A stretch of 64,000 bases of DNA from Trypanosoma brucei. Taxonomy: Eukaryota. Every line of letters begins with the position of its first letter. Position 1 is the stretch's first letter. The DNA lies in assembly GCA_000002445.1 (NCBI GenBank), contig CH464492.1, positions 64,001 to 128,000 of the forward strand, in the 5' to 3' direction. The notes below the pieces were generated by a model. The model was not told where the DNA came from, made no database searches, and saw only the letters and a list, made by a program, of their open reading frames with translations. The translations under genes and the position numbers were made by a program. Positions 6,550 to 46,235 of this stretch are shown one piece after another.

Positions 6550-6565
6550 TGATATATTTTAACAC
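6550..6565 (+). promoter_or_regulatory. VSG 3'UTR 16-mer TGATATATTTTAACAC (exact)
   Basis: Exact match, 23 nt after the stop codon. Confidence 0.85.
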
Positions 6566-6684
6566 CTAAATTCACCGAAAAAATTGAACTGTATTTGTAA
6601 AAAATTCTGAGTCTGTAAAAATTTTTGCTTTTCTGATACCTAAAATTTTTTTCCTTTTCCCGTTGAATTTTTTTATTTTGTGCA

Positions 6685-6795
6685 GGTAGGTGGGTGATTA
6701 GTTAGGTTAGTTAGGGAGGGTTTCCCTACTTAGGCTTAGGATTAGGATTAGGCTTAGGGTTAGGATTAGGATTAGGGTTATTCGGTTAGGGTTAA
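6685..6795 (+). repeat. Degenerate telomere-type hexamer tract, G-strand (TTAGGG/TTAGGA/TTAGGC)n
   Basis: ttagggagggtttccctacttaggcttaggattaggattaggcttagggttaggattaggattagggttattcggttagggtta. A G-rich block gtaggtgggtg precedes it. It is the reverse complement of the right-hand block at 7969-8192. Confidence 0.8.
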
Positions 6796-6850
6796 TTTTC
6801 CTCTCTTCCTGCTAATTAATTTTCTCATTCCAGTTTTTCTAGTCTTTTAG

Positions 6851-6866
6851 TGATGCAGCGGCTCCA
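6851..6866 (-). other. Conserved VSG-3'-flank motif GGAGCCGCTGCATCAC (reverse-complement copy)
   Basis: tgatgcagcggctcc at 6851-6866 is the exact reverse complement of ggagccgctgcatcac at 7743-7758. A one-mismatch copy is at 44216-44231. A second degenerate copy, tgatgcagcagc, is at 6907-6918. Confidence 0.7.
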
Positions 6867-6969
6867 TTTTTTTTACACCACTTTGCTGTTTTTATTTTTT
6901 TAAAAGTGATGCAGCAGCTTTTTTGTTATGCGAACCCTAACCCTCAACACCTTAACCCGAACCCGAAAC

Positions 6970-7740
6970 TTAGGCGCTCGTGTGGCTAAAAAAAATGTGT
7001 GTCGCAAAAAAAAGTGGGGGGTTGCAAAAAAAAAGAAGTTAAAGAAAAAAATGCAAAATCTAACCCGGAGTTCGAAATTTAAAAATCTCAAAACTCTCAA
7101 AAACTTTAAAATCTAAAAATCTAAAAAACGATAATTTAAAAAAATAAAGATTTAAAAAGAACCGAAAAAATCCAAACAGAAAAAAGGAAAAAAGCGAAAA
7201 AAAATAAAGCAAAAAGATGAATTAAAAAAATATGAGCTAAAAAAGCCGAAATAAAAAAATAATGCCGCGACAGGGAACAAAAAAATCAAAAATAACAAAT
7301 TAAAATTCAAAAATTCGGAAAATTTTAAAAAAAATGAAAAAATTTTTTAAAAAACCAAAAACCTCGCAAAATCCGAAAACTAAAAAAAAGGATTAGAAAA
7401 AATTTTTTAAATCTAAAAACATTGAAAACAAAAAAACTGCGGTGACAAAAAAAACGAAAAACCAAGAAGGCAAAAAAGAGTCACTGGTGGGGTGCAAAAA
7501 ATATATAAATTCAAATTTAAAAAGTCGCAAAATTTAAAAAATAAAATCATGCAAAAAAAAGAAGGGTAAAAAAGGGTTGCTGAAAGACGCGCTAAAAAAA
7601 ATTCGCGCACTCCCAAAAAACGTAAAAATGTAAAAAAAAATGCAATGTCGCGACGGGGATCAAAATATTTTTATAAATTTAAAGATTGGATATGCGTGCG
7701 CGGGGGAGTGGGGGGGAGGAGGGTTAGGGTCCGCATAATA
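6970..7740 (+). repeat. A-rich low-complexity core between the inverted telomere-type tracts
   Basis: About 770 bp that is overwhelmingly A-rich on the + strand (aaaaatctaaaaatctaaaaaacgataatttaaaaaaataaag...). It ends in a G-rich block gcgcgggggagtgggggggaggagggttaggg at 7698-7732. The lysine-rich ORFs listed here are artefacts of poly-A. Confidence 0.7.
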
Positions 7741-7968
7741 AAGGAGCCGCTGCATCACTAAAAAAATACAAATTTTTAAAAATCGAAAAACTCAAGAAAA
7801 AAAACAAAAATTAAAAAAGGTTTAAAAAACTTTAAAAAAACTTTAAAAAATTTAAAAAAACGCTGGCGCAAAGAAAAAAGAGCCTGTGCATTACTGTGGA
7901 GCCAAAAACAAAATTATTGGAGCAATTAAGGACGCAGCTGCGGGGTAAAAAAGAAAAAGGAAAAAAGT

Positions 7969-8192
7969 AACCCTAACCGAATAACCCTAACCCTAACCCT
8001 AACCCTAACCCGCTAACCCGAAACACCCTAACCCTAACCCGCTAACCCGAAACACCCTAACCCTAACCCGCTAACCCGAAACACCCTAACCCTAACCCGC
8101 TAACCCGAAACACCCTAACCCTAAGCCTAAGCCTACCTAACCCCCCTCCACCTACCTAACTACCCCCCCCCCATTCCTACCTAGGTACCTAC
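7969..8192 (+). repeat. Telomere-type C-strand tract (CCCTAA)n with four tandem 29-bp telomere-derived repeats and a C-rich tail
   Basis: Perfect ccctaa hexamers at 7984-8010. Then caccctaaccctaacccgctaacccgaaa occurs four times (29-bp period, ~8016-8130). Then cctaagcctaagcctacctaacccccctccacctacc. This resembles the 29-bp telomere-adjacent repeats described at T. brucei chromosome ends. Confidence 0.8.
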
Positions 8193-8311: not shown

Positions 8312-8327
8312 GTGTTAAAATATATCA
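8312..8327 (-). promoter_or_regulatory. VSG 3'UTR 16-mer (exact, minus strand)
   Basis: The + strand reads gtgttaaaatatatca, the reverse complement of TGATATATTTTAACAC. It sits ~45 nt downstream of the minus-strand VSG stop at 8372. Confidence 0.85.
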
Positions 8328-8371
8328 GAAGTTTTCAAGTAGCAAGGAAAATTTTAAAAAGAGGGAGGGAA

Positions 8372-9928: not shown

Positions 9929-10079
9929 GTACAGAAGGTTGCCTGTTGATCAGAAAGAAGGGGGTGCACCAAAATTTTGTGCCCCGTGGTCGTTTAGTGG
10001 TTTGTCATCAATGCTGTTTGCTTTCTGGGTTCAACAGCGAACGTTGAGCTGCTTTGTTGAAGGTTTTTAGGCAAAAAAG

Positions 10080-20320: not shown

Positions 20321-23300
20321 ACACACCCTCTACCGCAAACCTAACACGTAACTCCTTCAAACCGGGCCAGCTCATCAAGTGCGGCGACGTTTCTTCGCAG
20401 ACGCCGCGTTGGCTGGTAACAGCGCGCTCTACCTTCATACCGTGCATCTTCTTTTGATATAGGGTGAGGCCAGTTTTGCTAGCACACTGCCTTCCGCATG
20501 TCGGGTACACCAACATGGATGTGTTTGTATGCGGGGAATCAGTGGCACACGATTTCGTGCTTTTGCTGCATTTAAGCTCGATTCCCTCACCTTTGTGGAA
20601 AGCCTTACAGTGTCGGATGAGGGAGTCCCTGCAACTGAGCACTTTTTGGCACACACCACACTGCACCTCGCCTTTCCCCGGGACGTCAACGTTTCCCTCA
20701 CGGGCACGCTTACGAGGGATTTGCACCACCACCACGGTACCGTCCTCCGTCACTATGCTCTTATGTTTGAATTTCTTGTGTAGTGACAGGGAAGAGCGTG
20801 TACCAATGCTCGCCTCGCACAGGTCACATTGAAACGGCAGCTTCCGTGTATCCTGAGGGGCTGGCGCTGCTGGGGCTCTACCATCTCCTTGCAACGAGTC
20901 CTCGTTTTCTCGCCCCCTTTTCACGCGGCAACTACCGCTACCTATGCCATGTATTGTTCTAAGGTGGTGTAATAGTCGGCCTGGCACTGCGAATTTGGAG
21001 GCACAGATGGTACAATGAAGCACCTGCGGTCTCATCGGGACTCGTGTGCTCGATGGTAGAGGAACGATCGCTACCACTGGAGGGGGCTCCTGGGGGATGT
21101 CCACTGCGGGTGTTGCATCGCCGTATTTGATCCTCCGGAGGGCATCAGCTCGCACAAAGCCATGTTTGTTTACCATATGCGTTACAGCACTCGAGCGGCA
21201 TTGGTATGTGGCATCACATTCCGTATATTAGGTCGGTTCGGAGGTTCTCTGAAGAGTGCGTGTCGCAACAGTTGGGGATGTTTGTATTGTGGGTCCTATT
21301 GCTTCATGTTTCGGGTTACACCATCGGCACTGTGGAGGCACACTCGGGTTGATATTTCGCAACATCCATCCATAGTGTCTTGAAGAACCAACCCGAAAGC
21401 GTGCCAGTGCCGTTTCTTCTTTCCTCGTCAGTTCTTCATTATGTTTTGTTGGAAAGTGGTTGCCCGTGATACCAAACCTATGAGTGTTCTCATGGACTTC
21501 TTCCGACCTAAGCACTCGCTTCGCATAAGAAATGATGTCGGGGATCCATGTGTCTCGCAACTGTGGTAAATCAGCGGCCTTTTTGGCCATTCCATCGCAA
21601 ACCTCATTCCGTTTCACGCCACAATGGCCAAACACAAATTGCAGTCGAATACGCACCTTCCTTCTCTGAACTTGAAGCAGAAGCCTCCATAGTCGTCTCA
21701 GAATTGGGTCCGTTACGGCTAGGAGGCCTGTCTGCAGTGCTGTCAACATTGACAGCGAGTCAGAGAAGATGGAAAACCTGCTCGGTGTGCTTCTGTATGC
21801 CGGAAGCCATTTCAAGCAGCCGTTGCAGTCCTATCTCTAATGCTACGCATTCCACTCTGTAACTGCATGAGAGTTCCCTTGCTCCGGTCTTGGGTGCACA
21901 AATCAGCGTGTTGTTTCTATAGAGCAGGGCAGCTGCTCCGGACTTCTCACCGAGGGACACGGATCCATCAGTCCACAATTCGTAGTGCTCTCGTCGCGGT
22001 GGCTCCTTCCCCCTCCGTGCAAAATGTCGTGCAATCCACTTTTCGGAAGCCTCCCTTTTGACATCGTCAGGGTCATCAGCGCACACAGCCTTTATCTGCG
22101 TGTGAAATAGCGGTCGGCAGCTGTGGCGGAGCGTCGATGTCTCCAGTGGGTGCTCGCTCGGCTCCATGCGGAGGTGGGGGTAGGACCGTATGATGCGGGA
22201 ATGTAGGGCTCTGACTGGGTGTTTGCTGTGGTATACTTCCTCAGCACTGCGACGCAAATATCCATCTCGTGACTCACACATCAGCATGAATTTCATGATG
22301 CGCACAAGAGTGGTCGTCTTGAGTGGCAGGAGGTTTGCTTCCAGCAGAGAGTCCTCTTTGCGCGTCCCATGCGGTATGCCAGCTATGATTAGACTAGCCT
22401 TGTGTTGTGCTGCTGCAAGGAGGTCGCGACTTCGGTTCTAAGCGTCCCAGTACCATACCTCAATGCCATACATGGTGTGTGCCTGTACGAGTGCTAGATA
22501 AAAAGCTCTCAGTACTTGTCGTCTTGGCCCCCATGTAGAAGCTGAGATGGCTGCTATCTGCAGTAGTAGGAAGTCCATCTTGCGTCTCGTTTCGGCCGCA
22601 TGTGTTGCCATCCCTTGCAGACACTGGAATGTTACTCCAAGAAGCTTCAGTGTCCTGTCAGCTCCTATTCTTTCGCCGTCCAGTTGTAATGTAAGGGGGT
22701 GGCGCCCTATACACCCGAAGAGTGTGCACTTTGTTTTCGCTATATTGACAGACATGAAGTACTCTTGTGACCATTGTAACACCACGTTTAGACCGCATTG
22801 TAGCGTGTGGTTGATGACATCCCTCTCTGTGTGCCTCGCAAGTAGCGTTAGGTCGTCTGCAAAGAATCCGTGCTGCAGTAACGGCACTTCGACAAGGCGT
22901 TGGCTCAACGAGTTCATGACAATAATGAACATGATTGTGCCAAGGACAGTTCCTTGTGGCACTCCTCGCTCAAATGTTCTGCTGCTGGAAAGCTTCTCCT
23001 TGAATCTCACTCTGCCAGTTCAGTTACTCAGAAATGATACGAACCACTTCACAATGTGGGGTGATACCTTCATTCTGTGCATTTCCCTCGCAATTTTGTC
23101 GTGGTCCACTGTATCAAATGCCTTCTCGTAGTCGACGAATACAGCACCCGTACGATATTGGTGCGTGGGACGGCAGAGGGCAGCGCGGACGTGCAGGAGT
23201 TGTTCGAGCGTTGAGCATCCGGGGCGAAAGCCTGATTGCTGCGGCGTCAGCTGGGACTCAACAGTGTCTCTAAGTCTCGCGGCAATTATGCGCTCCATGA

Positions 23301-25049
23301 CTTTGCAGAGACAGCTCGTGAGCGTCACAGGCCTGTAAGAATCGAGGTCCTCCCACTTTTTTCCGGCCTTCAGGATGGGGATGATAACACCAGTCTTCCA
23401 TGCAGGCGGCACGACTCCCGTTCGTAGGCTCTCATTGAATAGCCTCAGAACAAAACTCAGCGCTGTTCTACCGAGATGTTGCAGTGCCTCGTTGTATAAG
23501 CAATCAGGTCCGGGTGCGGATCCACTCGGAAGCAGTTTGATCGATCTCCGTAGTTCAGCCATCGTGATGGGACTGAACTCACTCGCTATCGTCTTTATTG
23601 GTGCCGGTGGGTGTGAGTCGGGGTGCCTTCTTGCGCGGGACGAGTACAGTTTACTGAACCTCTCAGCTTGACGGTAGTCCGTGATGGCCGCGTTATCAAC
23701 AAGTACCGCCGGTGTGGTTAGTGGTCGTGGCGCATATACCTTCTTGACAATGTGCCAACTGCAGCGGTCTGACACCGCAAGTCTGGAGCATAGCGTGCTC
23801 CATCTCTTCTTTGTGGTACGGTCCAGAATCTGCTTACGCGTGGCTACCAACTTTTCCCTTCGGTGGGAGGGTCCGCATCCAGCGATCTCTTCATCGAGTT
23901 TCGCGAGCTCAGGTGTCCAATGTGGTGGCGTTGCTCTGCAGCCATAGAGCACGGAGACCTTCGTCGCAATGCGGATGGCGGAGCTCAATTTCTGTTCCAG
24001 GGTGTTGACGTTCTTCTCTCTACCAATTTTCCTGCAGAGCTCGTCAACCTTGAGACGGAAATTCCTCCAGTCAGCTTTTAGCCATGCGTACATGGGCTTT
24101 CGAAGCCGCGGGCAACTCAGTGCATCTGTGCCGTCTCCAACGATAACGTCGAAAAATATGTGATGGTGATCGCTATCGGGAGAATACAGCGATGTCCACG
24201 TGTACACTGTGCAATTCCTTGACAGTGTCACATCAGGGGTGGACTCCCCGTGGTGGCGTGCGTACCTGGTGCACTCACCAGTGTTGCAGACCAGAAACTG
24301 GTTGTCAATGCACCACTGTGTGAGGGTTTCACCCTTGGTATTTGGTGGGCTCGCGCGATCCCATGCCAACGCGTGTGCGTTAGCGTCTGCACCGATGAGC
24401 TGGGCACCGTCAGTCGTCAGAAGCGTATCTAGGTCAGTTGCCGTGAAGGTGTGTTTTGGTGGGATGTATGCCGACGTGACAGTCAGCGCCGTTCCACGTG
24501 CAAGGTGAATTGTTGCATGCACTTGTTCAATGCGACCAACAACGGTCATACCAGTCTCGACTAGCAGGTTCTCCATCACTAGTATTGATACACCACCTCC
24601 TTTGCAGTTACGAGCTATTCTGTGATGTCGGTAGCCAGCAACGCTAAAGCAAACCACCTCTCCAGGCGTCATCCTTGTCTCGCTCAACAGACAAAAGACA
24701 ATCCGCTCATCAACAAGGGTTTTGTGAAGTGCTAATCTCTTTCCTTGAGATAGCCAGGCGCAGTTCCACTGCATCCCGCGAAACAACTAGACGGGATTCT
24801 CTTCCACATCACCGGACAGCAGCATGTTAGTGCGTATGATACTGCTGATGACACGCTGGCACGTGGCCAGGGACCGACAAATGAAAAACGGTGTCCCAGC
24901 AAGACGCTGCTGATCCCTGTGCTGTATGATGCCGTAGCCGGAGCACAGCAGTGTTCCCCATGAAAGGAAAGCTGCTGGCTCTTCGCTTCCCCCGATGATA
25001 CGGGGTACTGGACCCTGGCAACACGTTGAGGTGGCCGGCATCTCCGGGG
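20320..25049 (-). mobile_element. ingi: ingi non-LTR retrotransposon, copy 1, 3'-truncated and interrupted
   Basis: The minus-strand ORFs 23020-24786 (2A-like motif, AP-endonuclease, RT N-terminus), 22438-23010 (RT with FADD), 21760-22305 and 21228-21815 (RNase H region) and 20280-21176 (C2H2 zinc fingers) are collinear with, and by eye almost identical to, the + strand copy at 33650-38910. The 5' end is at ~25049 (reverse complement of ccccggagatgccggcc). Similarity to copy 2 stops at ~20320 inside a (GT/CA)n run. About 0.58 kb of 3' sequence, including the poly(A), is therefore missing. Confidence 0.85.
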
Positions 25050-25243
25050 ACTACCATAGTACGTTACCCTTATAGGCGACTATTAAACATGTTCTGCTAA
25101 AATTTTATTTTTTATAGCTTTTAAAAATGTTACAATCCCTCAATGGCTTTACACAATTTTAAAATATAAGAATTATTAATAATTTTTTGATAAACGTTAT
25201 AAATTTAAGAAAAAATTCTTTGAAAGTTAAAATTCTTCAAAAC

Positions 25244-33609: not shown

Positions 33610-34479
33610 TTGGAGTTTAACGCTGCTGGAAACGATAAGCAGCATTGCTCCCTGGCGATGCCGGCCACCTCAACGTGGTGCCAGGGTCCAGTACCCCGTA
33701 TCATCGGGGGAAGCCAAGAGCCAGCAGCGTTCCTTTCATGGGGAACAATGCTGTGCTCCGGCTACGGCATCATACAGCACAGGGATCAGCAGCGTCTTGC
33801 TGGGACACCGTCTTTCATTTGTCGGTCCCTGGGCACGTGCCAGCGTGCCATCAGCAGTATCATCCGCACTAAGATGCTGCTGTCCGGTGATGTGGAAGAG
33901 AATCCCGGCCCGTCGTTGCGCGGGATGCAGTGGAACTGCGCCGGGCTATCTCAAGGAAAGAGATTAGCACTCCACAAAACCCTTGTTGATGAGCGGATCG
34001 CCTTTTGTCTGTTGAGCGAGACAAGGATGACGCCTGGAGAGGCGGCTTGCTTTAGCGTTGCTGGCTACCAACATCACGGAATAGCTCGTAACTGCAAAGG
34101 AGGTGGTGTATCAATACTAGTGAGGGAGGACCTACCAGTCGAGACCGGTATGGCCGTTATTGGTCGCATTGAACAAGTGCATGCAACAATTCACCTTGCA
34201 CGTGGAACGGCGCTGACTGTCACGTCGGCATACATCCCACCAAAACACACCTTCACGGCAACTGACCTAGATACGCTTCTGACGACTGACGGTGCCCAGC
34301 TCATCGGTGCAGACGCTAACGCACACGCGTTGGCATGGGATCGCGCGAGCCCACCAAATACCAAGGGTGAAACCCTCACACAGTGGTGCATTGACAACCA
34401 GTTTCTGGTCTGCAACACTGGTGAGTGCACCAGGTACGCGCGCCACCACGGGGAGTCCAGCCCTGATGTGACACTGTGA
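33610..34479 (+). CDS. ingi N-terminal segment: 2A-like peptide plus apurinic/apyrimidinic-like endonuclease domain (289 aa, ends at a premature stop)
   Basis: Contains LLSGDVEENPGP at 33886-33912, then QWNCAGLSQGKRLALHKTLVDERIAFCLLSETRMTPGE…, typical of the endonuclease N-terminus of L1Tc/ingi-type elements. Confidence 0.8.
   Translation: MEFNAAGNDKQHCSLAMPATSTWCQGPVPRIIGGSQEPAAFLSWGTMLCSGYGIIQHRDQQRLAGTPSFICRSLGTCQRAISSIIRTKMLLSGDVEENPGPSLRGMQWNCAGLSQGKRLALHKTLVDERIAFCLLSETRMTPGEAACFSVAGYQHHGIARNCKGGGVSILVREDLPVETGMAVIGRIEQVHATIHLARGTALTVTSAYIPPKHTFTATDLDTLLTTDGAQLIGADANAHALAWDRASPPNTKGETLTQWCIDNQFLVCNTGECTRYARHHGESSPDVTL
33635..33649 (+). repeat. Target-site duplication (left copy) of ingi copy 2: ATAAGCAGCATTGCT
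   Basis: The identical 15-mer recurs at 38911-38925, immediately after the element's poly(A). Confidence 0.8.
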
Positions 34480-34491
34480 AGGAATTGCACA

Positions 34492-35664
34492 GTGTACACG
34501 TGGACATCGCTGTATTCTCCCGATAGCGATCACCATCACATATTTTTCGACGTTATCGTTGGAGACGACACAGATGCACTGAGTTGCCCGCGGCTTCGAA
34601 AGCCCATGTACGCATGGCTAAAAGCTGACTGGAGGAATTTCCGTCTCAAGGTTGACGAGCTCTGCAGGAAAATTGGTAGAGAGAAGAACGTCAACACCAT
34701 GGAACAGAAATTGAGCTCCGCCATCCGCATTGCGACGAAGGTCTCCGTCCCCCGTGGTTGCAGAGCAACGCCACCACATTGGACACCTGAGCTCGCGAAA
34801 CTCGATGAAGAGATCGCTGGATGCGGACCCTCCCACCGAAGGGAAAAGTTGGTAGCCACGCGTAAGCAGATCCTGGACCGTACCACAAAGAAGAGATGGA
34901 GCACGCTATGCTCCAGACTTGCGGTGTCAGACCGCTGCAGTTGGCACATTGTCAAGAAGGTATATGCGCCACGACCACTAACCACACCGGCTGTACTTGT
35001 AGATAACGCGGCCATCACGGACTACCGTCAAGCTGAGAGGTTCAGTAAACTGTACTCGTCCCGCGCAAGAAGGCACCCCGACTCACACCCACCGGCACCA
35101 ATAAAGACGATAGCGAGTGAGTTCAGTCCCATCACGATGGCTGAACTACGGAGATCGATCAAACTGCTACCGAGTGGATCCGCAGCCGGACCTGATTGCT
35201 TATACAACGAGGCACTGCAACATCTCGGCAGAACAGCGCTGAATGTTGTTCTGAGGCTATTCAATGAGAGCCTACGAACGGGAGTCGTGCCGCCTGCATG
35301 GAAGACTGGTGTTATCATCCCCATCCTGAAGGCCGGAAAAAAGGCGGAGGACCTCGATTCTTACAGGCCTGTGACGCTCACGAGCTGTCTCTGCAAAGTC
35401 ATGGAGCGCATAATTGCCGCGAGACTTAGAGACACTGTTGAGTCCCAGCTGACGCCGCAGCAATCAGGCTTTCGCCCCGGATGCTCAACGCTCGAACAAC
35501 TCCTGCACGTCCGCGCTGCCCTCTGCCGTCCCACGCACCAATATCGTACGGGTGCTGTATTCGTTGACTACGAGAAGGCATTTGATACAGTAGACGACGA
35601 CAAAATTGCGAGGGAAATGCACAGAATGAAGGTATCACCCCACATTGTGAAGTGGTGCGTATGA
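34492..35664 (+). CDS. ingi middle segment (RT fingers/palm N-terminal part), 390 aa
   Basis: …LPSGSAAGPDCLYNEALQHLG…PILKAGKKAEDLDSYRPVTLTSCLCKVMERII…FRPGCSTLEQLL…AVFVDYEKAFDTVDDDKI…. Confidence 0.8.
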   Translation: MYTWTSLYSPDSDHHHIFFDVIVGDDTDALSCPRLRKPMYAWLKADWRNFRLKVDELCRKIGREKNVNTMEQKLSSAIRIATKVSVPRGCRATPPHWTPELAKLDEEIAGCGPSHRREKLVATRKQILDRTTKKRWSTLCSRLAVSDRCSWHIVKKVYAPRPLTTPAVLVDNAAITDYRQAERFSKLYSSRARRHPDSHPPAPIKTIASEFSPITMAELRRSIKLLPSGSAAGPDCLYNEALQHLGRTALNVVLRLFNESLRTGVVPPAWKTGVIIPILKAGKKAEDLDSYRPVTLTSCLCKVMERIIAARLRDTVESQLTPQQSGFRPGCSTLEQLLHVRAALCRPTHQYRTGAVFVDYEKAFDTVDDDKIAREMHRMKVSPHIVKWCV

Positions 35665-35688
35665 TTTCTGAGTAACCGAACTGGCAGA

Positions 35689-38637
35689 GTGAGATTCAAG
35701 GAGAAGCTTTCCAGAAGCAGAACATTTGAGCGAGGAGTGCCACAAGGAACTGTCCTTGGCCCAATCATGTTCATTATTGTCATGAACTCGTTGAGCCAAC
35801 GCCTTGCAGAGGTGCCGTTACTGCAGCACGGATTCTTTGCAGACGACCTAACGCTACTTGCGAGGCACACAGAGAGGGATGTCATCAACCACACACTACA
35901 ATGCGGTCTAAACGTGGTGTTACAGTGGTCAAAAGAGTACTTCATGTCTGTCAACGTAGCGAAAACAAAGTGCACACTCTTCGGGTGTATAGAGCGCCAC
36001 CCCCTTACATTACAACTGGACGGTGAAAGAATAGGAGCTGACAGGACACCGAAGCTTCTAGGAGTAACATTCCAGTGTCTGCAGGGGATGGCAACACATG
36101 CGGCCGAAACGAGACGCAAGATGGACTTCCGACTACTGCAGATAGCAGCCATCTCAGCTTCTACATGGGGGCCAAGACGACAAGTACTGAGAGCTTTTTA
36201 TCTAGCACTCGTACAGGCACACACCATGTATGGCATTGAGGTATGGTACTGGGACGCTTCGGAACGAAGTCGCGACCTCCTTGCATCAGCACAACACAAA
36301 GCCAGTCGCATCATAGCCGGCATACCGCATGGGACGCGCAAAGAGGACTCTCTGCTGGAAGCAAACCTCCTGCCACTCAAGACGACCACTCTTGTGCGCA
36401 GCATGAAATTCATGCTGATGTGTGAGTCACGAGGCGGATGTTTGCGGCGCAGTGCTGAAGAAGTATACCACAGCAAACACCCAGTCAGAGCCCTACATTC
36501 CCGTATCATGCGGTCCTACCCCCACCTCCGCATTGAGCCACGCGAAAACCCACTAGAGACATCGACGCTCCGCCACAGCTGCCGACCGATATTTCACACG
36601 CAGATAAAGGCTGTGTGCGCTGATGACCCTGACGATGTCAAAAGGGAGGCTTCCGAAAAGTGGATTGAACGACATTTTGCACGGAGGGGGAAGGAGCCAC
36701 CGCGGCGAGAGCACTACGAATTGTGGACTGATGGATCCGTGTCCCTCGGTGAGAAGTCCGGAGCAGCTGCCCTGCTCTATAGAAACAACACGCTGATTTG
36801 TGCACCTAAGACAGGAGCAGGGGAACTTTCATGCAGTTACAGAGCGGAATGCGTAGCATTAGAGATAGGACTGCAACGGCTGCTGAAATGGCTTCCGGCA
36901 TACAGAACCACACCGAGCAGGTTGTCCATCTTCTCTGACTCGCTGTCAATGTTAACAGCACTGCAGACAGGCCCCCTAGCCGTAACGGACCCAATTCTAA
37001 GACGACTATGGAGGCTTCTGCTTCAAGTTCAGAGAAGGAAGATACGTATCCGACTGCAATTTGTGTTTGGCCATTGTGGCGTGAAACGGAATGAGGTTTG
37101 CGATGACATGGCCAAAAAGGCCGCAGATTTACCACAGTTGCGAGACACATGGATCCCCGACATCATTGCTTATGCGAAGCGAGTGCTTAGGTCGGAAGAA
37201 GTCCATGAGAACACTCATAGGTTTGGTATCACGGGCAACCACTTTCCAACAAAACATAAGGAAGAACTGACGAGGGAAGAAGAAACGGCACTGGCACGCT
37301 TTCGGGTTGGGTCTTCAAGACACTATGGATGGATGTTGCGAAAGATTAACCCGAGTGTGCCTCCACAGTGCCGATGGTGCAACCCGCAACATGCAGAGAT
37401 AGGGCCAACAATACAAACAGCCCCAACTGTTGCGACACGCACTCTTCAAAGAACCTCCGAACCGACCAAATGTACGGAATGTGATGCCACATACCAATGC
37501 CGCTCGAGTGCTGTAACGCATATGGTAAACAAACATGGCTTTGTGCGAGCTGATGCCCTCCGGAGGATCAAATACGGCGATGCAACACCTGCAGTGGATA
37601 TCCCCCCGGAGCCCCCTCCAGTGGTGGCGATCGTTCCTCTACCATCGAGCACACGAGTTACGATGAGACCGCAGGTGCTTCATTGTACCATCTGTGCCTC
37701 CAAATTCGCAATGCCAGGCAGACTACTACACCACCTTAGAACAATACATGGCATAGGCAGCGGTAGTTGCCGCGTGAAAAGGGGGCGAGAGAACGAGGAC
37801 TCAGAGCAAGGAGATGGTAGAGCCCCAGCAGCGCCAGCCTCTCAGGATACACGGAAGCTGCCGTTTCAATGTGACCTGTGCGAGGCGAGCTTCGGTACAC
37901 GTTCTTCCCTGACACTACACAAGAAATTCAAACATAAAAGCATAGTGACGGAGGACGGTACCGTGGTGTTGGTGCAATTCCCTCGTAAGCGTGCCCGTGA
38001 GGGAAACGTTGACGTCCCGGGGAAGGGCGAGGTGCAGTGCGGTGTGTGCCAAAAAGTGCTCAGTTGCAGGGACTCCCTCATCCGACACTGTAAGGCTTTC
38101 CACAAAGGTGAGGGAGTCGAGCTTAAATGCAGCAAAAGCACAAAATTGTGTGCCACTGATTCCCCGCATACAAACACATCCATGTTGGTGTGCCCGACAT
38201 GCGGAAGGCAGTGTGCTAGCAAAACTGGCCTCACCCTACATCAAAAGAAGATGCACGGTATGAAGGTAGAGCGCGCTGTTACCAGCCAACGCGGCGACTG
38301 CGAAGAAACGTCGCTGCACTTGATGAGCTGTCCCGGTTTGAAGGAGTTACGTGTCAGATTTGCGGTAGAAGGTGAGTGTGTGCAGGATGTATGTTTCTCC
38401 AAAAGGCTGGCGCAGTTTCTCATTGCGGTTGAACGGAGCCGGCCGCAGGTGAAGTCCTCACCTAAGGTAACAGTCATACAACCCACTCTCCCTTCTGCAA
38501 CTTCCCCCCTTATTGCCGAGTGTGGAGCCAGCAGGAAAAGCACCGGACGCAGGAATAGTCCAGACACCCTCAGAGACAGAGGAGGTATGCAGTCAACAAG
38601 CAACAAAAACAGAAACAGAAAGAGGGGGAGAGAATAA
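35689..38637 (+). CDS. ingi polyprotein C-terminal segment (reverse transcriptase, RNase H, C2H2 zinc-finger domains), 982 aa
   Basis: Has the RT YxDD box (GFFADDLTLLA), an RNase H segment (ELWTDGSVSLGEKSGAAALLY…CSYRAECVALEIGLQ) and a Cys2His2 cluster (CTICASKFAMPGRLLHHLRTIHG; CDLCEASFGTRSSLTLHKKFKH). Confidence 0.85.
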   Translation: MRFKEKLSRSRTFERGVPQGTVLGPIMFIIVMNSLSQRLAEVPLLQHGFFADDLTLLARHTERDVINHTLQCGLNVVLQWSKEYFMSVNVAKTKCTLFGCIERHPLTLQLDGERIGADRTPKLLGVTFQCLQGMATHAAETRRKMDFRLLQIAAISASTWGPRRQVLRAFYLALVQAHTMYGIEVWYWDASERSRDLLASAQHKASRIIAGIPHGTRKEDSLLEANLLPLKTTTLVRSMKFMLMCESRGGCLRRSAEEVYHSKHPVRALHSRIMRSYPHLRIEPRENPLETSTLRHSCRPIFHTQIKAVCADDPDDVKREASEKWIERHFARRGKEPPRREHYELWTDGSVSLGEKSGAAALLYRNNTLICAPKTGAGELSCSYRAECVALEIGLQRLLKWLPAYRTTPSRLSIFSDSLSMLTALQTGPLAVTDPILRRLWRLLLQVQRRKIRIRLQFVFGHCGVKRNEVCDDMAKKAADLPQLRDTWIPDIIAYAKRVLRSEEVHENTHRFGITGNHFPTKHKEELTREEETALARFRVGSSRHYGWMLRKINPSVPPQCRWCNPQHAEIGPTIQTAPTVATRTLQRTSEPTKCTECDATYQCRSSAVTHMVNKHGFVRADALRRIKYGDATPAVDIPPEPPPVVAIVPLPSSTRVTMRPQVLHCTICASKFAMPGRLLHHLRTIHGIGSGSCRVKRGRENEDSEQGDGRAPAAPASQDTRKLPFQCDLCEASFGTRSSLTLHKKFKHKSIVTEDGTVVLVQFPRKRAREGNVDVPGKGEVQCGVCQKVLSCRDSLIRHCKAFHKGEGVELKCSKSTKLCATDSPHTNTSMLVCPTCGRQCASKTGLTLHQKKMHGMKVERAVTSQRGDCEETSLHLMSCPGLKELRVRFAVEGECVQDVCFSKRLAQFLIAVERSRPQVKSSPKVTVIQPTLPSATSPLIAECGASRKSTGRRNSPDTLRDRGGMQSTSNKNRNRKRGRE

Positions 38638-39183: not shown

Positions 39184-39610
39184 TTAGTCTTCACCACCCC
39201 TCTTATTATAAGGTTCGTATACACACTCACAACACTCTCCTGTTATTATCATCATTATTATTATTACTATCATTATTACTGCTCTTATTATAATATTCGT
39301 ATATACACTCTCACTCTCACAACACTCTCCTATTATTATTATTATTATTATTATTATTACTGCCCTTATTATAATATTCGTATATGCATACTCACAACAC
39401 TCTCCTATTATTATTATTATTATTACTGCTCTTATTATAATATTTGTATATACACACTCACAACACTCTCCTATTATTATTATTATTATTACGGATCTTA
39501 TTATAATATTCGTATATACACACTCACAACACTCTCCTATTATTATTATTATTATTACGGATCTTATTATAATATTCGTATATACACACACTCACAACAC
39601 TCTCCTATCA
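39184..39610 (-). repeat. Tandem array of ~6 70-bp repeats in reverse orientation, with long (ATT)n tracts
   Basis: Repeated units of cttattataatattcgtatatacacactcacaacactctcctattattattatt… This is the only multi-copy 70-bp array in the window. Confidence 0.9.
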
Positions 39611-39822
39611 TTATCGTTACATCACTATTTTAATGCTAACAAGTATCCATAAGTGACTTAAATAAACAAAATAAAGTAAATTAGAATAACACTAACTTGT
39701 CATACCATTATCCATACTGCTGTTGAACCACACGCTACATTAATACCAAATTGCAAACTTTAAATATTTTGAATTTTTTAGTTATCATGGTGTTCGCGAA
39801 TTTTTATATTTGCATTTAATAG

Positions 39823-41447: not shown

Positions 41448-43069
41448 ATCCTTTTTTTCTTGATCCTATGTGGAGAGTTAGAGCAAACACTTCCATTGCA
41501 CGAACTTGCAAGCAACTCGTGGTATTTGTGTTTCCGCGCTGTCAATGTTTCGGAAGTTTATAAGGCAACTTTTTTGCCAGAGTCTTTCTGGTGGCAGCTT
41601 TTGGCCTCCTTTGCTTTCGAAAGATGGTTTTTATACATGTGCGAGACGTCTTTCGCTGATTTCTTTTTGGTCAATTACCGCCTATTTCTACTTTATCGTG
41701 TTCCTCGGTTCCTAAATACCCTCTACGAAAATCTCTATTACTTTATAAAAATTTCCCCAAAGCAAAATCTCCCCCTTTCCCTCTTTTATTTCTATGTTTT
41801 TCTAATTTTCTTTTCTTATCTTTTTTAAATATCCCGTATTCGCCTCTGAGCTACTGCAGAAAAATACACTTTCTTGCTCAATCAGGGGGCTTTAGTCACT
41901 ATTTACCGATACAAAAGTTTTTTCAGTAACTGTGCTGTATATATCACCTATTTTCACGTAAAGATGTTTGTTTTATGTGATAAGGCTGCTGCTGATTGCC
42001 GGCTCATCGCGAATGCTAAGCAAATGCAGCTGCGAGTATACTCTCTAAATTCACCCCAACCACCGCTTCTTAGTTTCTACTGCATTTTCCAGTATATATT
42101 CTATTTTGTGCTTCGGGTTTGCACCAAGCAGCTGAAACACTCTTTATAAGTCTATTCTGTTTCAAACGCAATCTGTACGGCGCCGTCGCCTCCTTATATC
42201 TTTACAATTATTGCTTTTCTTTACTCTTAACGATGCATAGAGGTGTAAGAGGATGAAATGCTACTTGAAAATAGCTGCTTTTTTACTGATTTCCTTCTAC
42301 TAAGATAAATTCAAACTCACTCTTGTATGTACTCTTTTGTTTAGTGTAGTTAAGCTACCATGTAAGTTGTATTTTTCGTACCATTATCTGCTGCATTCCA
42401 TGAATCAATAGAATTATCGCTCGTATCTGGTAAATATTTCCATCCACTTGAGTTTAGCGTCTACTAAGGATCGCCGTTTCTACAGTATTTTTTTACTGCT
42501 CTTATTTCTGACTGTATTTTACTTTTGACGCGTTTTGTTTTGCTTAATGTAGATATTTATGAATTTCGTGTCAGGTTTCATGTGCTTTCGCAAGGTTTTG
42601 TGCAATTGTTAGCTTTTTGGTTTTCTATCACCGCCAGCTTGAGTAGTTAATTCTGTTACAAAACGTATTTTTAGACAAATTGCACGCTCTTTATAAGGTG
42701 TGATCTCTGCTCTTGATACCTTTTTTAAATAAAAGTTCTCTATCCGGAATTAATGCATTCTTTGAATTGGTCTTTAGAACATATTTTCCGTGGTACATTT
42801 AGTATACTTTCACATGTACTGCTTCTTTGTGCTAAATGTAGGAACAGAAATTGACCCTTTCAGTGAATTCTGTATCTCTATAATTATATCCCTTATTCTC
42901 TTCTTTTGTATAATGATGATCTTTGTCGCATTTGTGTTTGAAACTGCACATATTCCATGCCCTCTTCTTTGTCTTCTCTTCATTACCATCCCATTTCCTT
43001 ATTCTCATGGCACACCTTTCACTGTTTTGAGTACCCATATTTTGGATATTCACTTAACTTTAAGTTCTC

Positions 43070-43165
43070 TTATTGTAATTTTTGTATATACACACTTACA
43101 ACACTCTTCTGTTCTCATCATATCATTTTTATCATTATTGCTGTTATAACCCTAGCTAATATTCA
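43070..43165 (-). repeat. Degenerate 70-bp repeat copy, reverse orientation
   Basis: tttgtatatacacacttacaacactcttctgttctcatcatatcatttttatcattattgctg. It is ~1.6 kb upstream of the minus-strand VSG pseudogene ending at 41447. Confidence 0.6.
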
Positions 43166-43416: not shown

Positions 43417-43830
43417 CTAGAATGTTAAAAAACTCAAAAAAGCAGAAGTTATACTCAGAGAAAATTTCTGATTGGCGAGGAAAATACCGTTTCGGTACTT
43501 TTCTGTATCCTTATCGTCTTCGCCATCTTTACCCTTCCTAAATGCACAATTTTTCTTGTCTCCTGTTTTGTCCTTTTTACAATCAGGCTGATTATGGTGC
43601 CTTGCACATCCAGTTGTAGCTACTTCCCCTGCAATTCCATCTCCTTTTTCTAGCTCTGTGGTTTCCGTTCCTGCCTTAGGTTTGCACTTGTTACCATCTG
43701 TGCTGTTTCCGATATAAACGCAATGCTCGCTTGGGCATTCTACTGCAGTTGTGTTTTTTAGTTGCATTTATTATGTTCCTCTACTGTTGGCTTTCTGCTT
43801 AATTTTTGCGGTGGAGTTATGCCCGTGGTA
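43417..43830 (-). pseudogene. VSG C-terminal-domain fragment (3' donor fragment)
   Basis: ORF 43417-43767 gives …GCARHHNQPDCKKDKTGDKKNCAFRKGKDGEDDKDTEKYRNGIFLANQKFSLSITSAFLSFLTF*, a C-domain plus GPI signal. The overlapping ORF 43758-43970 adds …KPTVEEHNKC. Both match the C-terminus of the VSG at 25244-25633. There is no N-domain upstream. Confidence 0.7.
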
Positions 43831-44215
43831 ATTACGGGGCCCTGTATTAATATTTTTGAGGGCTGCCGCCGGATCTTTCGGGGCATGGGGTTGCGCCTGC
43901 ATTGCTCTGCCGACACTGCAGTTAACTGTTCACCGCCTCCCCTTGCTTTGGCTAAGTTGCTGTACCGCAAAATGACTTGTCCAGCCTGCTACATCGGCTG
44001 GTTTTAGCTGCCGAACTCCATATTCTTCCACTTCCAAATATTAAGATTTTTTCGTTAGCGCCCCTTGAAGAGCAAATCGTATGGCGGAGCGAAACTGCCA
44101 CAAGCCAGCGTTAAAAATAAATTTGAAGTCGCGCGCAGTAGAAAGTGCAGAGCTGAGATTCACCAAAGAAAAAAAGTAACAAGTCGAGACGACGGTGTGG
44201 GTGAACAAAAAAGAG

Positions 44216-44600
44216 CCGCTGCATCGCTAAGGAAATTTTTTAAAAACTAAAGTCGCGAAGCTTCACTGCTAGTAAAAAAATTATTAGTAAGAGGAGAAAT
44301 AAACATAACCGTAACCCGAATAACCCTCTCTAGCCTCCCTGTCTTTTTTCCTTCTTCCTACCTCCTACTTTCTTGTATTGGCGGAAAAAATAAACAACAA
44401 AAATTAAACTAAAGTTGAAAAATTAATGAAAATTGAAAAATCAAAACTCAAAAACCGATAAAATAAAATTAAAAAAACATAAAACCTTGATTCAAAAAAT
44501 TCTAACCCTAAAAAATTCAAAAAAAATGTGGAACAAAAAGAGAAATTTGACTCATGAAAAAAATTAACACGCACAGGAAGCTCAAAAAGATTAATAATAT
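44216..44600 (+). repeat. VSG 3'-flank module: GAGCCGCTGCATC motif, truncated telomere-type hexamers, C-rich block, A-rich tract
   Basis: agagccgctgcatcgcta at 44215-44232. aaccgtaacccgaataaccctctctagcctccc at 44299-44331 (compare aaccctaaccgaataaccctaaccc at 7969). A-rich low complexity at 44390-44600. It has the same order and orientation as 7743-8300 but lacks the long CCCTAA/29-bp block. Confidence 0.7.
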
Positions 44601-44618
44601 TTCCGGGTAACTTGCGTG

Positions 44619-46235
44619 TTAAAATATATCAGATAGCAAAATTCTTTTTAAAGGGAAGGGGAAAATTCTTTTAGAAAAGCAAAGCCATAAATGCAGCAGA
44701 AACCATGAGGGCGAAGTGTTGTTTAGGAGGAAACTAAAATCTTTGCAAGTTTCACCCTCCCATTTGTAGCCAGCAGCCTCTCCACAATCTTTCTCTCCTT
44801 TCCCCTTGCATTTCTCCTCTTTCTTTTCTTCCCCTTTGTTCTTCTCTGCTGCCACGCAATTTCCATCTTTGAATTCGCAGCCATCTTCTGTTTTGCACTT
44901 TTCTTTGTTGGTTATCGCTGCGCATTTTTTGCTTATTTCTTTTCTCACTTCAGGACTGCTTGATGCAGTTGCTGCCGTCCTTGAGGCTATGAGCTGTTTG
45001 CCCTGCAAAAATGTTAGCACCGTTGCAGCGCTGTCGGTACCTGCTGTTTCGAAGATCGTCTTGTCGAAGGTCGTTTCTCTTACTTTCAGATTGAGTGGCG
45101 TCTTGTCAATCGAATCTGTTATTCGTGCCGTGAACGCGGTTTGGTCGCTGCCGAGGTAAGCGTCTGTTAGAGCCTTTTTTGCCTGCTGCTCTGTTGGTGC
45201 TTTTCCACCTGGGGCTATCAGGTCCGTTAGTGCCTGCAGTAGTTTGTCGTCTGCTCTAACCGCTGCCCATGATATTCGGTGTATTGGTGTATAAGTGGGT
45301 TTTTTGAGCTGACGGATGTTGCAGAGCGCATTTCCTAGAGTATCCTTGTCGTATTCTGTGTATGGGGCCGTCGGGTTGATTTGCGTGCAGGTTTTGGTTT
45401 CCACATTTGTGAACAGATTGATATCAATGGTGCTGTAAGTTGTTGCCTTCTTTGTGAGCGCCGTTGCCATTGCGTTGTTGGCCGCTGTGTTAAAGTCGCT
45501 GCCCCTTTCGATGCAGCCGCCGTCCTGCATTGTTGAAGCAATGGAGCTGCTGGACAGCTTCCCTTTGCAATGTGTGGTGACTGTGTATGTCGTCGCCGGT
45601 TTGGTCACGTCGATGATCTTGATTTTGGTGTGGCTCTCGTGAGCTATGTCGTTTGTTTTTACCGCTTCTTTTTCTGTGTCTAGCGTGCAGGTGGCTGCTT
45701 CTAGCTTGAACGCGGCCGTGCTTGGGCACTTTACCATGCCTGTGACGCTTTCTAGCTGTGCAGCGGTTGATGGCGCTGTACTAGTTACTTTTGCTGATGT
45801 CGACTCTGTCCTGTGCAAGGTTAGCATAGCGGCTTCCTGCTGCTTTATGATCCGCACAGCATCATTGTAGCGCTTGGCAGCCGCTTCCGTTTCTCGGTTT
45901 AGTGTGTCAATGCCTGCTTCGGTCACTGCCGCCATTGCAAGGAATGCTATTTCTGTTTGCTTGTCTTGGCTGAACGCGGCTTTTATTCTGTAAGCCATTG
46001 CTGTCTTTATCGCGGTTGTCCGGATTTCTTTTGCAGAGGGTCGAGCTTGCTCTAGTTTGCTCGCCAGTTTATGCAGGTACTGGGCCGCTGAACAAGCAGT
46101 TTTTACTTGCTGGGTGGCCGTATCCTCGATGTCCGCGGCGCTTACAGGCAAGATACTGACAAGTGACATAACAAATGCGTGCCACAGGCTTTGTGACTTC
46201 ATTTTTCTATGCTGTTTTGCTTTGGCTAGACACAA
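44619..46235 (-). CDS. VSG: VSG; the ORF reads through the GPI-signal region into the 3'UTR 16-mer, so the C-terminus is probably frameshifted
   Basis: 538-aa ORF. The likely real start is the internal Met (MKSQSLWHAFVMSLVSILPVSAA, signal peptide). The N-domain is long. The C-domain is …CGEAAGYKWEGETCKDFSFLLNN and is followed by TSPSWFLLHLWLCFSKRIFPFPLKRILLSDIF* instead of a short hydrophobic tail. An exact 16-mer lies at 44616-44631 on the minus strand. Confidence 0.75.
   Translation of the reverse strand: MCLAKAKQHRKMKSQSLWHAFVMSLVSILPVSAADIEDTATQQVKTACSAAQYLHKLASKLEQARPSAKEIRTTAIKTAMAYRIKAAFSQDKQTEIAFLAMAAVTEAGIDTLNRETEAAAKRYNDAVRIIKQQEAAMLTLHRTESTSAKVTSTAPSTAAQLESVTGMVKCPSTAAFKLEAATCTLDTEKEAVKTNDIAHESHTKIKIIDVTKPATTYTVTTHCKGKLSSSSIASTMQDGGCIERGSDFNTAANNAMATALTKKATTYSTIDINLFTNVETKTCTQINPTAPYTEYDKDTLGNALCNIRQLKKPTYTPIHRISWAAVRADDKLLQALTDLIAPGGKAPTEQQAKKALTDAYLGSDQTAFTARITDSIDKTPLNLKVRETTFDKTIFETAGTDSAATVLTFLQGKQLIASRTAATASSSPEVRKEISKKCAAITNKEKCKTEDGCEFKDGNCVAAEKNKGEEKKEEKCKGKGEKDCGEAAGYKWEGETCKDFSFLLNNTSPSWFLLHLWLCFSKRIFPFPLKRILLSDIF

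What the first reader, a model, noticed from the sequence alone, without database searches (positions are those of the whole stretch)
44190..44640. A recurring VSG 3'-flank module (motif GAGCCGCTGCATC, telomere-like hexamers, C-rich block, A-rich tract) also sits at an internal VSG
Downstream of the minus-strand VSG at 44619-46235, reading the + strand, the order is:
- agagccgctgcatcgcta (44215)
- aaccgtaacccgaataaccctctctagcctccc (44299)
- an A-rich low-complexity tract (44390-44600)
- the 16-mer

The same order is seen for the VSG at 8372:
- ggagccgctgcatcacta (7743)
- aaccctaaccgaataaccctaacc… (7969)
- A-rich tract
- 16-mer

The 44-kb copy has lost the long CCCTAA/29-bp block and keeps only ~1.5 hexamers. 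A third, reverse-complement copy of the motif is at 6851.

This suggests a conserved element that accompanies some VSGs when they are copied. These VSGs may descend from telomere-proximal copies and have carried part of their telomere junction into an internal array.
Basis: seen in the sequence. Interest (0 to 1): 0.6.

Follow-up and report, generated by a model that had tools for sequence, protein, structure and literature searches.

The report
Telomere-type VSG downstream flank inside array
Three surface-antigen (VSG) genes inside a Trypanosoma brucei gene array are followed by DNA of the kind reported next to chromosome ends, which suggests these gene copies or their tails once sat beside a telomere; this is real but fits known trypanosome biology.

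Summary
The window is T. b. brucei TREU927 VSG array DNA. Three of about a dozen VSG 3' ends share one collinear module: a perfect 16-mer, a T-rich tract, a degenerate G-rich block, TTAGGG-like repeats ending in GGGTTATTCGG(G)TTA(G/C)GGTTA, a 66-90 nt spacer, then G(T/C)GATGCAGCGGCTC. These are VSG5103(+), VSG8372(-) and VSG44619(-). Both anchor motifs occur only in these flanks, always in the same order and orientation.

The two flanks at 6.5-8.3 kb are clearly homologous (86% identity, z=17.5). The 44-kb copy is diverged, has no perfect hexamer, and is alignable only as far as the motif (z=5.5-7.6).

New details:
- The two well-preserved flanks each carry two motif copies.
- They face each other tail-to-tail.
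- VSG8372 carries 4.4 perfect 29-bp telomere-derived repeats.
- Only these three VSGs have a perfect 16-mer.
- The 44-kb module abuts a VSG C-terminal remnant.

Best reading: these are relics of telomere-proximal-type VSG 3' flanks (Aline & Stuart 1989) relocated into the array. The three VSGs are unrelated, so the flank goes with a type of locus, not a VSG lineage. No telomeric T. brucei sequence was reachable, so the genome-wide test remains undone. Interest is modest.

The parts
44616..44631 (-). Perfect VSG 3'UTR 16-mer (TGATATATTTTAACAC) of VSG44619
   Evidence: 0 mismatches
44380..44615 (-). T-rich tract on the VSG sense strand (55% A on the + strand); contains TTAGGGTTAG at about 44500-44511
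44328..44379 (-). Degenerate purine/G-rich block on the sense strand (CT-rich on +), with CCTACCT-type words shared with the other two flanks
44307..44327 (-). Junction motif TAACCGTAACCCGAATAACCCT as read on the + strand; one indel and one mismatch from the 21-mer found in the other two flanks
44212..44229 (-). Single motif copy, AGAGCCGCTGCATCGCTA as read on the + strand; detectable homology to the other flanks ends here
43417..43767 (-). VSG C-terminal-domain remnant just beyond the module, followed by an array-type flank and a 70-bp repeat (43067-43141); marks the resident array slot
   Evidence: PF10659, E=2.8e-21
6550..6565 (+). Perfect 16-mer of VSG5103 (EAN78986.1)
6566..6722 (+). T-rich tract, then a degenerate G-rich block (from about 6679)
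6723..6794 (+). TTAGGG-like hexamers (TTAGGC/TTAGGA variants) ending in the junction GGGTTATTCGGTTAGGGTTA (21-mer at 6774-6794)
6849..6864 (+). Proximal motif copy, GTGATGCAGCGGCTCC in VSG sense
6905..6967 (+). Distal, degenerate motif copy GTGATGCAGCAGCTT, then TTTTGTTATGCGAACCCTAACCCTC and further C-strand telomere-like sequence in inverted orientation
   Evidence: (I23)
6968..7718 (.). A-rich spacer (55% A on +) of about 750 bp with GC islands, between the two facing modules; which flank it belongs to is unresolved (T-rich in VSG8372 sense)
7719..7758 (-). Distal motif copy of the VSG8372 flank (GGAGCCGCTGCATCAC on +) with its adjoining GAGGGTTAGGGTCCGCATAATAAA; inverted repeat of 6898-6945
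   Evidence: (I23)
7879..7893 (-). Proximal, degenerate motif copy (GAGCCTGTGCATTAC on +), 84 nt from the junction
7968..8124 (-). Junction 21-mer, CCCTAA hexamers and 4.4 perfect copies of a 29-bp telomere-derived repeat (7996-8124); with the adjoining block to 8190 this holds 13 perfect CCCTAA
8125..8311 (-). Degenerate C-rich block, then an A-rich tract (G-rich, then T-rich, in VSG sense)
8312..8327 (-). Perfect 16-mer of the VSG8372 pseudogene

Best explanation
The feature is a relic of a telomere-proximal-type VSG 3' flank sitting inside a chromosome-internal VSG array of T. b. brucei TREU927.

At telomere-proximal VSG loci, TTAGGG-like repeats follow the gene (Aline & Stuart 1989, as cited in PMC3708902). 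In these three window flanks the full order after the 16-mer is: a T-rich tract, increasingly telomere-like G-strand repeats (including 29-bp derivatives), a sharp conserved junction (GGGTTATTCGGTTAGGGTTA), and one or two copies of GTGATGCAGCGGCTC.

Shown here:
- Three array VSGs carry this structure.
- They have unrelated coding regions.
- They are the only VSGs in the window with a perfect 16-mer.
- The other VSGs have the ordinary array-type flank, which leads straight to the next 70-bp repeat.

Inferred:
- VSGs are swapped by gene conversion in front of a resident telomeric 3' end. Each such flank therefore marks a cassette whose 3' end came from a telomere-proximal site and was moved into the array by ectopic recombination or breakage and rejoining.
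- At 44 kb the imported segment ends non-homologously against the C-terminal remnant of the VSG that was there before. It has since lost its hexamer block. Its single motif copy is consistent with recombination between the two direct motif copies seen in the other flanks.
- At 6.5-8.3 kb two such ends face each other tail-to-tail. This is either a roughly 3.1-kb inverted insert carrying VSG8372 without any 70-bp repeat, or an old end-to-end joining.

In the array the module is probably passive. Its most plausible effect is about 300-600 bp of extra 3' homology to telomeric sites, plus an expression-competent 3'UTR.
For: Source and context:
- The source is TREU927.
- VSG identities are confirmed by Pfam.
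- 70-bp repeats and array-type flank families are present.

The module itself:
- It is collinear and statistically supported.
- The G-strand lies on the VSG sense strand in all three flanks.
- Telomere-word blocks occur only in these flanks.
- A perfect 29-bp repeat, 4.4 copies, is present.
- A perfect 16-mer is found at 3 of 3 module VSGs and 0 of 9 other 16-mer-like sites (my own Fisher exact calculation gives about 0.005).
- The 16-mer is essential for VSG mRNA stability and is conserved in functional transcripts (PMC5698767).

Relationship to the genes:
- The three VSG proteins are unrelated.
- The 44-kb module abuts a VSG CTD remnant with its own array-type flank and 70-bp repeat.
- VSG8372 has no upstream 70-bp repeat and lies inverted among +-strand VSGs.

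Literature:
- TTAGGG-like repeats 3' of telomere-proximal VSGs are described.
- The VSG-to-telomeric-repeat distance in expression sites is 200-1590 nt.

Control: 158.7 kb of T. b. equiperdum subtelomeric or ingi-adjacent DNA, with at least 6 VSGs, contains no motif, no junction and no telomere-like block.
Against: - No genuine telomeric T. brucei VSG flank could be retrieved. Homology of the motif and junction to real chromosome ends is inferred from architecture and literature, not shown.
- The content of Aline & Stuart 1989 is known here only through a citing sentence and my recollection.
- The 44-kb copy has no perfect hexamer. It rests on two anchor motifs plus weak collinearity.
- The motif lies distal to the hexamer block and is followed by an inverted CCCTAA stretch. 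A simple picture of a VSG followed directly by the telomere does not predict this.
- Direction of transfer (telomere to array, or array to telomere) cannot be read from one window.
- The equiperdum control is small and comes from another subspecies.
Confidence: 0.65

Rival explanations
1. An array-internal flank family. The module is one of several VSG downstream-flank types that spread by segmental duplication within arrays and has no telomeric history. Its hexamers would be an old, incidental simple repeat.
For: All three copies seen are internal. The motif lies beyond the hexamer block and is not itself telomere-like. No telomeric copy was observed.
Against: - Consistent G-strand orientation.
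- The 29-bp telomere-derived array.
- The distance from the VSG matches that in expression sites.
- Perfect 16-mers.
- The associated VSGs are unrelated, which argues against simple co-duplication.
- A published description of TTAGGG-like repeats 3' of telomere-proximal VSGs.
Confidence: 0.1
2. Independent in-situ additions. Breaks downstream of these VSGs were healed or patched by telomerase or by capture of telomeric DNA, creating interstitial telomeric sequences separately at each site.
For: Interstitial telomeric repeats inserted during double-strand-break repair are known in other eukaryotes (abstract of PMC7215372, listed). The three blocks differ greatly in length.
Against: - Both sides of the hexamer block are homologous between copies: the T-rich and G-rich proximal side, the identical 21-nt distal junction, the spacer and the motif. 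This points to common descent of the whole module, not separate additions.
- The perfect 29-bp array is better explained by local expansion within an inherited block.
Confidence: 0.08
3. Assembly artefact. Telomeric clone ends were mis-joined into the array, especially the tail-to-tail pair at 6.5-8.3 kb.
For: A head-to-head arrangement of two telomere-type ends around low-complexity DNA is the sort of place where assemblies fail.
Against: - The two flanks differ by many substitutions and indels (86% identity) and are not collapsed copies.
- The repeats are degenerate rather than a long pure telomere tract.
- The 44-kb copy is embedded in unique sequence on both sides.
- From my own knowledge, TREU927 chromosomes were assembled from ordered clones.
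Confidence: 0.05
4. An active cis-element. The module, or its roughly 170-bp interstitial telomere tract, works in the array as a binding platform for telomere proteins or base J, or as a fragile site or recombination hotspot. It would be retained by selection.
For: - 13 perfect CCCTAA in the 7968-8190 block, including a perfectly homogeneous 29-bp array.
- The 13-nt motif is conserved exactly in three otherwise diverged copies.
- T. congolense has conserved non-coding elements between the VSG and the telomere (PMC6152948).
Against: - The 44-kb copy has lost all perfect hexamers.
- Two of the three associated VSGs are pseudogenes.
- Motif copies at 6908 and 7880 are decaying.
- There is no match to any RNA family.
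- The motif strings do not appear in the searchable literature.
Confidence: 0.12

Closest known systems
[quoted passage not shown]
   Same: It lies directly after the VSG 3'UTR. TTAGGG-like repeats have the G-strand on the VSG sense strand. The structure is shared by VSGs with unrelated coding regions. The distance from the VSG is within the 200-1590 nt seen in expression sites.
   Different: Here the structure is internal to an array and does not run into a terminal telomere tract. Sequence identity to the published flanks could not be checked. I could not find the 13-nt motif or the 21-nt junction described anywhere.
29-bp telomere-derived subtelomeric repeats of T. brucei (Blackburn & Challoner 1984; Weiden et al. 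1991; recalled from my own knowledge, not retrievable here)
   Same: A 29-bp period, a unit made of CCCTAA variants, and a position adjacent to hexamer repeats.
   Different: Only 4.4 copies, at an interstitial site. Identity to the published unit was not verified.
Interstitial telomeric sequences between subtelomeric blocks in other eukaryotes (for example yeast X/Y' junctions or the human 2q13 fusion; my own knowledge)
   Same: Telomere repeats are retained internally between blocks of subtelomeric DNA. The 6.5-8.3 kb pair has G-strands pointing at each other, as at a head-to-head fusion.
   Different: About 1.2 kb of non-telomeric conserved and A-rich DNA separates the two blocks. The repeats are short and degenerate. 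No fusion junction can be defined.
T. congolense conserved non-coding elements CNE3/CNE4 between the VSG and the telomere (PMC6152948)
   Same: Conserved, oriented, non-coding elements downstream of VSGs, often next to pseudogenes.
   Different: A different species. No sequence relationship was tested. Those elements were described at true telomeres.

Membership tests
Telomere-proximal-type VSG 3' flank (Aline & Stuart 1989 organization) | Lies immediately downstream of a VSG 3'UTR, after the 16-mer | tested here: met
   The 16-mers at 6550, 8312 and 44616 directly precede the module.
Telomere-proximal-type VSG 3' flank (Aline & Stuart 1989 organization) | TTAGGG-like repeats with the G-strand on the VSG sense strand | tested here: met
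   Clear for VSG5103 (4 perfect hexamers plus variants) and VSG8372 (13 perfect). For VSG44619 only the junction-homologous GGGTTATTCGGGTTACGGTTA remains, with no perfect hexamer in the block.
Telomere-proximal-type VSG 3' flank (Aline & Stuart 1989 organization) | VSG-to-repeat distance in the range seen at expression sites (200-1590 nt) | tested here: met
   About 150-200 nt (VSG5103), 180-230 nt (VSG8372) and 340 nt (VSG44619) from stop codon to block, against PMC2567434. The lower values are at the edge of the range.
Telomere-proximal-type VSG 3' flank (Aline & Stuart 1989 organization) | Continues into a terminal (TTAGGG)n tract at a chromosome end | tested here: not met
   All three are followed by non-telomeric DNA and further VSGs within the window. 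They are therefore relics, not functioning chromosome ends.
Telomere-proximal-type VSG 3' flank (Aline & Stuart 1989 organization) | Sequence homology to flanks of bona fide telomeric VSGs (expression-site, metacyclic-site or minichromosome) | not testable with these tools
   No telomeric T. brucei DNA was reachable. TREU927 genes are not in the contig index. Collection scans gave only chance hits.
T. brucei 29-bp telomere-derived repeat | Tandem 29-bp unit built from CCCTAA variants | tested here: met
   Tandem Repeats Finder reports 7996-8124, period 29, 4.4 copies, 100% matches, unit ACCCTAACCCTAACCCGCTAACCCGAAAC.
T. brucei 29-bp telomere-derived repeat | Identity to the published unit | not testable with these tools
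   The original papers are not held, and a string search of the library found nothing.
Ordinary array-type VSG 3' flank | A 16-mer-like element, then about 150-250 nt of conserved array flank leading to the next 70-bp repeat | tested here: not met
   The three module VSGs lack repeat families D10, D16 and D17 after the 16-mer. Those families appear at 30988, 43138, 50759, 57313 and 59854 next to other VSG ends. For VSG44619 the next 70-bp repeat is 1475 nt away.
Break-repair interstitial telomeric sequence | Repeat insertion without homology of the flanking DNA between sites | tested here: not met
   The flanks on both sides of the block are homologous between copies.

The most novel reading that the evidence does not exclude
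The module is not a passive fossil but a conserved cis-element of telomere-proximal VSG loci, with GTGATGCAGCGGCTC as a protein-binding site next to a fixed junction. Its array copies pair a perfect 16-mer with, in one case, a roughly 170-bp interstitial telomere tract. They would either seed telomere-protein or base-J chromatin inside the array, or give those VSGs extended 3' homology that raises their rank in the activation hierarchy.
Probability: 0.12. Interest if true: 0.6.

Novelty: new member of a known kind. Interest (0 to 1): 0.3.

Why it matters
If the telomeric origin holds genome-wide, the two short anchor motifs would be a cheap marker for array VSGs whose 3' ends once sat in telomere-proximal sites. 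This could be used in three ways:
- to trace traffic between telomeres and the silent archive;
- to test whether such VSGs, which have a perfect 16-mer and extra 3' homology, are activated earlier in infection;
- to locate interstitial telomere tracts that might bind telomere proteins inside silent arrays.

As it stands, this is a well-documented example of known subtelomere biology rather than a new mechanism.

Tried and rejected
- **External trypanosome data.**
  - A protein search with VSG5103 found nothing.
  - A search with the VSG8372 ORF gave only 7 VSGs, one of them with a contig.
  - Exact-protein look-ups for TREU927 VSGs were not on record, although the proteins are in the collection.
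  - Via ingi reverse-transcriptase cluster members I fetched seven T. b. equiperdum loci. None holds the motif, the junction or telomere-like repeats. They serve only as a small negative control.
- **Collection scans.**
  - The combined motif-gap-junction pattern gave 0 hits in metagenomes.
  - The 21-mer gave one hit in an unrelated eukaryote with CCCTAAA-type repeats.
  - The 19-mer gave one chance hit inside a Bacteroidetes coding region.
- **Rfam.** No family matched either region, apart from one chance U4 match (E=0.99, 16 bits against a gathering score of 46).
- **Pfam on short ORFs at 43758-44250.** Nothing, so the roughly 400 bp between the motif and the CTD remnant stays unassigned.
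- **Homology beyond the motif.**
  - None for the 44-kb copy.
  - Only 24 nt between the other two flanks.
- **Segment-by-segment identity matrix across seven VSG ends.** Too noisy to use.
- **A-tract phasing.** Modest periodicity of about 8 and 10 nt in 6990-7700, not significant at 44 kb. Not used as evidence.
- **Literature.**
  - No paper in the library prints the motif, junction or 29-bp strings in a trypanosome context.
  - Aline & Stuart 1989 and Marcello & Barry 2007 are not held.
Full report
**What the window is.** Exact protein look-up identifies three window ORFs as annotated VSGs of Trypanosoma brucei brucei TREU927: EAN78986.1 (5103-6527, '+'), EAN78988.1 and EAN78990.1. They lie on a 286,308-bp record. 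Pfam confirms VSG N- and C-terminal domains. It also identifies two inverted ingi retrotransposons (inverted arms 20316-25050 and 33649-38382). 70-bp repeats and several conserved inter-VSG repeat families show that this is a silent VSG array.

**Check of the observation.**
- GAGCCGCTGCATC occurs exactly three times: 6852 '-', 7744 '+' and 44213 '+'. With up to 2 mismatches there are 6 hits against 0.95 expected, and no shuffle out of 100 reached that number.
It is identical at 7968 and, reverse-complemented, at 6774-6794. At 44307 it differs by one indel and one mismatch.
- The junction's 12-nt core, CCGAATAACCCT, occurs three times against 0.11 expected.
- Blocks of telomere words occur only in these flanks.

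**Anatomy, read on the VSG sense strand.** All three flanks run in this order:
1. a perfect 16-mer;
2. a T-rich tract;
3. a degenerate G-rich block with TAGGT/GGTAGG words;
4. TTAGGG-like repeats ending in GGGTTATTCGG(G)TTA(G/C)GGTTA;
5. a spacer of 66-90 nt;
6. G(T/C)GATGCAGCGGCTC followed by a T run.

Global alignments beat shuffles that preserve composition in 20-nt blocks:
- VSG5103 against VSG8372: 86% identity in aligned columns, z=17.5.
- VSG44619 against VSG5103: z=7.6.
- VSG44619 against VSG8372: z=5.5.

The module is therefore real and collinear, but the 44-kb copy is a diverged relic. Its block contains no perfect hexamer. Its homology to the others ends at the motif.

1. Each of the two well-preserved flanks has two motif copies.
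   - The proximal copies are 6852 (exact) and 7880 (GAGCCTGTGCATT).
   - The distal copies are 6908 (AAGCTGCTGCATC) and 7744 (exact).
   - In both flanks the distal copy is followed by TTTrTTATGCGrACCCTAACCCTC, a short C-strand telomere-like stretch in inverted orientation (I23, 49, 81).
   - The single 44-kb copy has the spacing of a proximal copy and a right-hand side resembling a distal copy. This is consistent with a deletion between the two direct copies (inference).
2. VSG5103 (+) and VSG8372 (-) are tail-to-tail, so their G-strands point at each other.
   - About 1.2 kb separates them, including a 750-bp tract that is 55% A.
   - VSG8372 has no 70-bp repeat of its own. It sits only about 146 nt from the +-oriented 70-bp repeat of the next VSG.
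   - A segment of roughly 3.1 kb is therefore inverted within a +-strand array.
3. The VSG8372 flank holds 4.4 perfectly identical copies of a 29-bp telomere-derived unit. The block 7968-8190 holds 13 perfect CCCTAA.
4. Only these three VSGs have a perfect 16-mer. Nine other 16-mer-like sites at VSG ends have 1-4 mismatches. My own Fisher exact calculation gives about 0.005. The 16-mer is essential for VSG mRNA stability and is conserved in functional transcripts (PMC5698767).
5. The other VSGs have an ordinary flank of about 150-250 nt of conserved sequence leading to the next 70-bp repeat.
   - For VSG44619 that distance is 1475 nt.
   - The extra DNA consists of the module, about 400 bp of unassigned sequence, and a VSG C-terminal-domain remnant at 43417-43767 (PF10659, E=2.8e-21).
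   - The remnant has its own array-type flank.
6. The three VSG coding regions are unrelated: about 25% amino-acid identity, or no significant hit at all.
7. VSG8372 and VSG44619 are pseudogenes.
   - VSG8372 is split into two ORFs.
   - VSG44619 has a frameshift in its GPI signal. Its canonical stop is at 44671-44673.

**Interpretation.** The architecture matches what is reported for telomere-proximal VSGs.
- In Lister 427 expression sites the VSG-to-telomeric-repeat distance is 200-1590 nt (PMC2567434). Here it is about 150-340 nt.
- From my own knowledge, 29-bp telomere-derived repeats are a classical T. brucei subtelomeric element (Blackburn & Challoner 1984; Weiden et al. 1991). I could not retrieve these papers.

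Several things fit best with cassettes whose 3' ends came from telomere-proximal loci and were later placed in the array:
- a shared flank behind unrelated VSGs;
- perfect 16-mers;
- a non-homologous junction against a resident VSG remnant.

At telomeres, gene conversion replaces the VSG in front of a resident 3' end (established knowledge). That explains why the flank is not tied to one VSG lineage.

Because the motif lies distal to the hexamer block, that block is an internal component of a subtelomeric structure rather than the stump of a terminal tract.

**Rivals.** Four alternatives were considered.
- *An array-only flank family* is disfavoured by orientation, the 29-bp repeats, spacing, the 16-mers and the literature.
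- *Independent break-repair insertions* are disfavoured because DNA on both sides of the hexamer block is homologous between copies.
- *Mis-assembly* is unlikely. The facing flanks differ by many indels, and the 44-kb copy is embedded in unique sequence.
- *An active cis-element* cannot be excluded. However, motif copies are decaying, the 44-kb hexamers are lost, and two of the three genes are pseudogenes.

No RNA family matches either region above chance.

**Limits.** The decisive genome-wide test could not be run.
- TREU927 genes are not in the contig index.
- Collection scans gave only chance hits.
- The seven T. b. equiperdum loci I could fetch total 158,678 bp and carry at least 6 VSGs. 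They contain no motif, no junction and no telomere-like block. This shows only that the motif is not a generic subtelomeric repeat.
- The motif strings are not printed in any trypanosome paper in the searchable library. That does not establish novelty.

**Verdict.** This is a real, recurrent module. It is best read as a telomere-proximal-type VSG 3' flank retained at three array VSGs. One tail-to-tail pair preserves a roughly 170-bp interstitial telomere tract. It is a new instance of a known kind of structure and of modest interest.

Noticed in passing
window 6550, 8312, 44616 versus 4007, 13330, 19186, 25156, 39822, 43321, 50933, 60009, 63549: A perfect VSG 16-mer is found only at the three VSGs with the telomere-type flank. 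All other 16-mer-like sites at VSG ends carry 1-4 mismatches.
   Followed up: partly
window 20316-25050 and 33649-38382: Two ingi retrotransposon copies in inverted orientation (96-97% identical over 4.7 kb) bracket an 8.6-kb segment containing minus-strand VSGs. This is a substrate for inversion.
   Followed up: no
window 6968-10070: VSG8372 and its 1.36-kb flank form an inverted segment of about 3.1 kb within a +-strand VSG run. It has no 70-bp repeat of its own and lies only about 146 nt from the neighbour's 70-bp repeat.
   Followed up: partly
window 7996-8124: The 4.4 copies of the 29-bp unit are 100% identical, whereas the surrounding hexamers are degenerate. This suggests recent local expansion or homogenisation.
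   Followed up: no
window 6990-7700: A 55% A tract with GC islands and weak periodicity of about 8 and 10 nt (p=0.006 for the 9.5-11.5 nt band). It recalls the bent AT-rich subtelomeric DNA reported for minichromosomes, which I cite from memory.
   Followed up: partly
window 44640-44700: VSG44619 has a frameshift inside its GPI-signal sequence. The canonical ...FALMVSAAFMALLF* frame ends at 44671-44673, so the long ORF to 44619 is read-through.
   Followed up: yes
window 43805-44190: About 400 bp of non-repetitive, GC-richer sequence lies between the motif and the VSG C-terminal remnant. It has no match elsewhere in the window and no Pfam hit, so its origin is unassigned: either a degenerate VSG N-terminal part or distal flank.
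   Followed up: partly
window 39198-39635: The longest 70-bp repeat array in the window: about six units of 66 nt with (ATT)n tracts, downstream of VSG40236.
   Followed up: no
L006 6472-7869 (T. b. equiperdum QSBY01000016.1): A leucine-rich-repeat gene lies next to a full-length ingi on a 126-kb unplaced contig. It may be ESAG8-like and part of an expression site. No telomere-like repeats were found within the 24 kb fetched.
   Followed up: no
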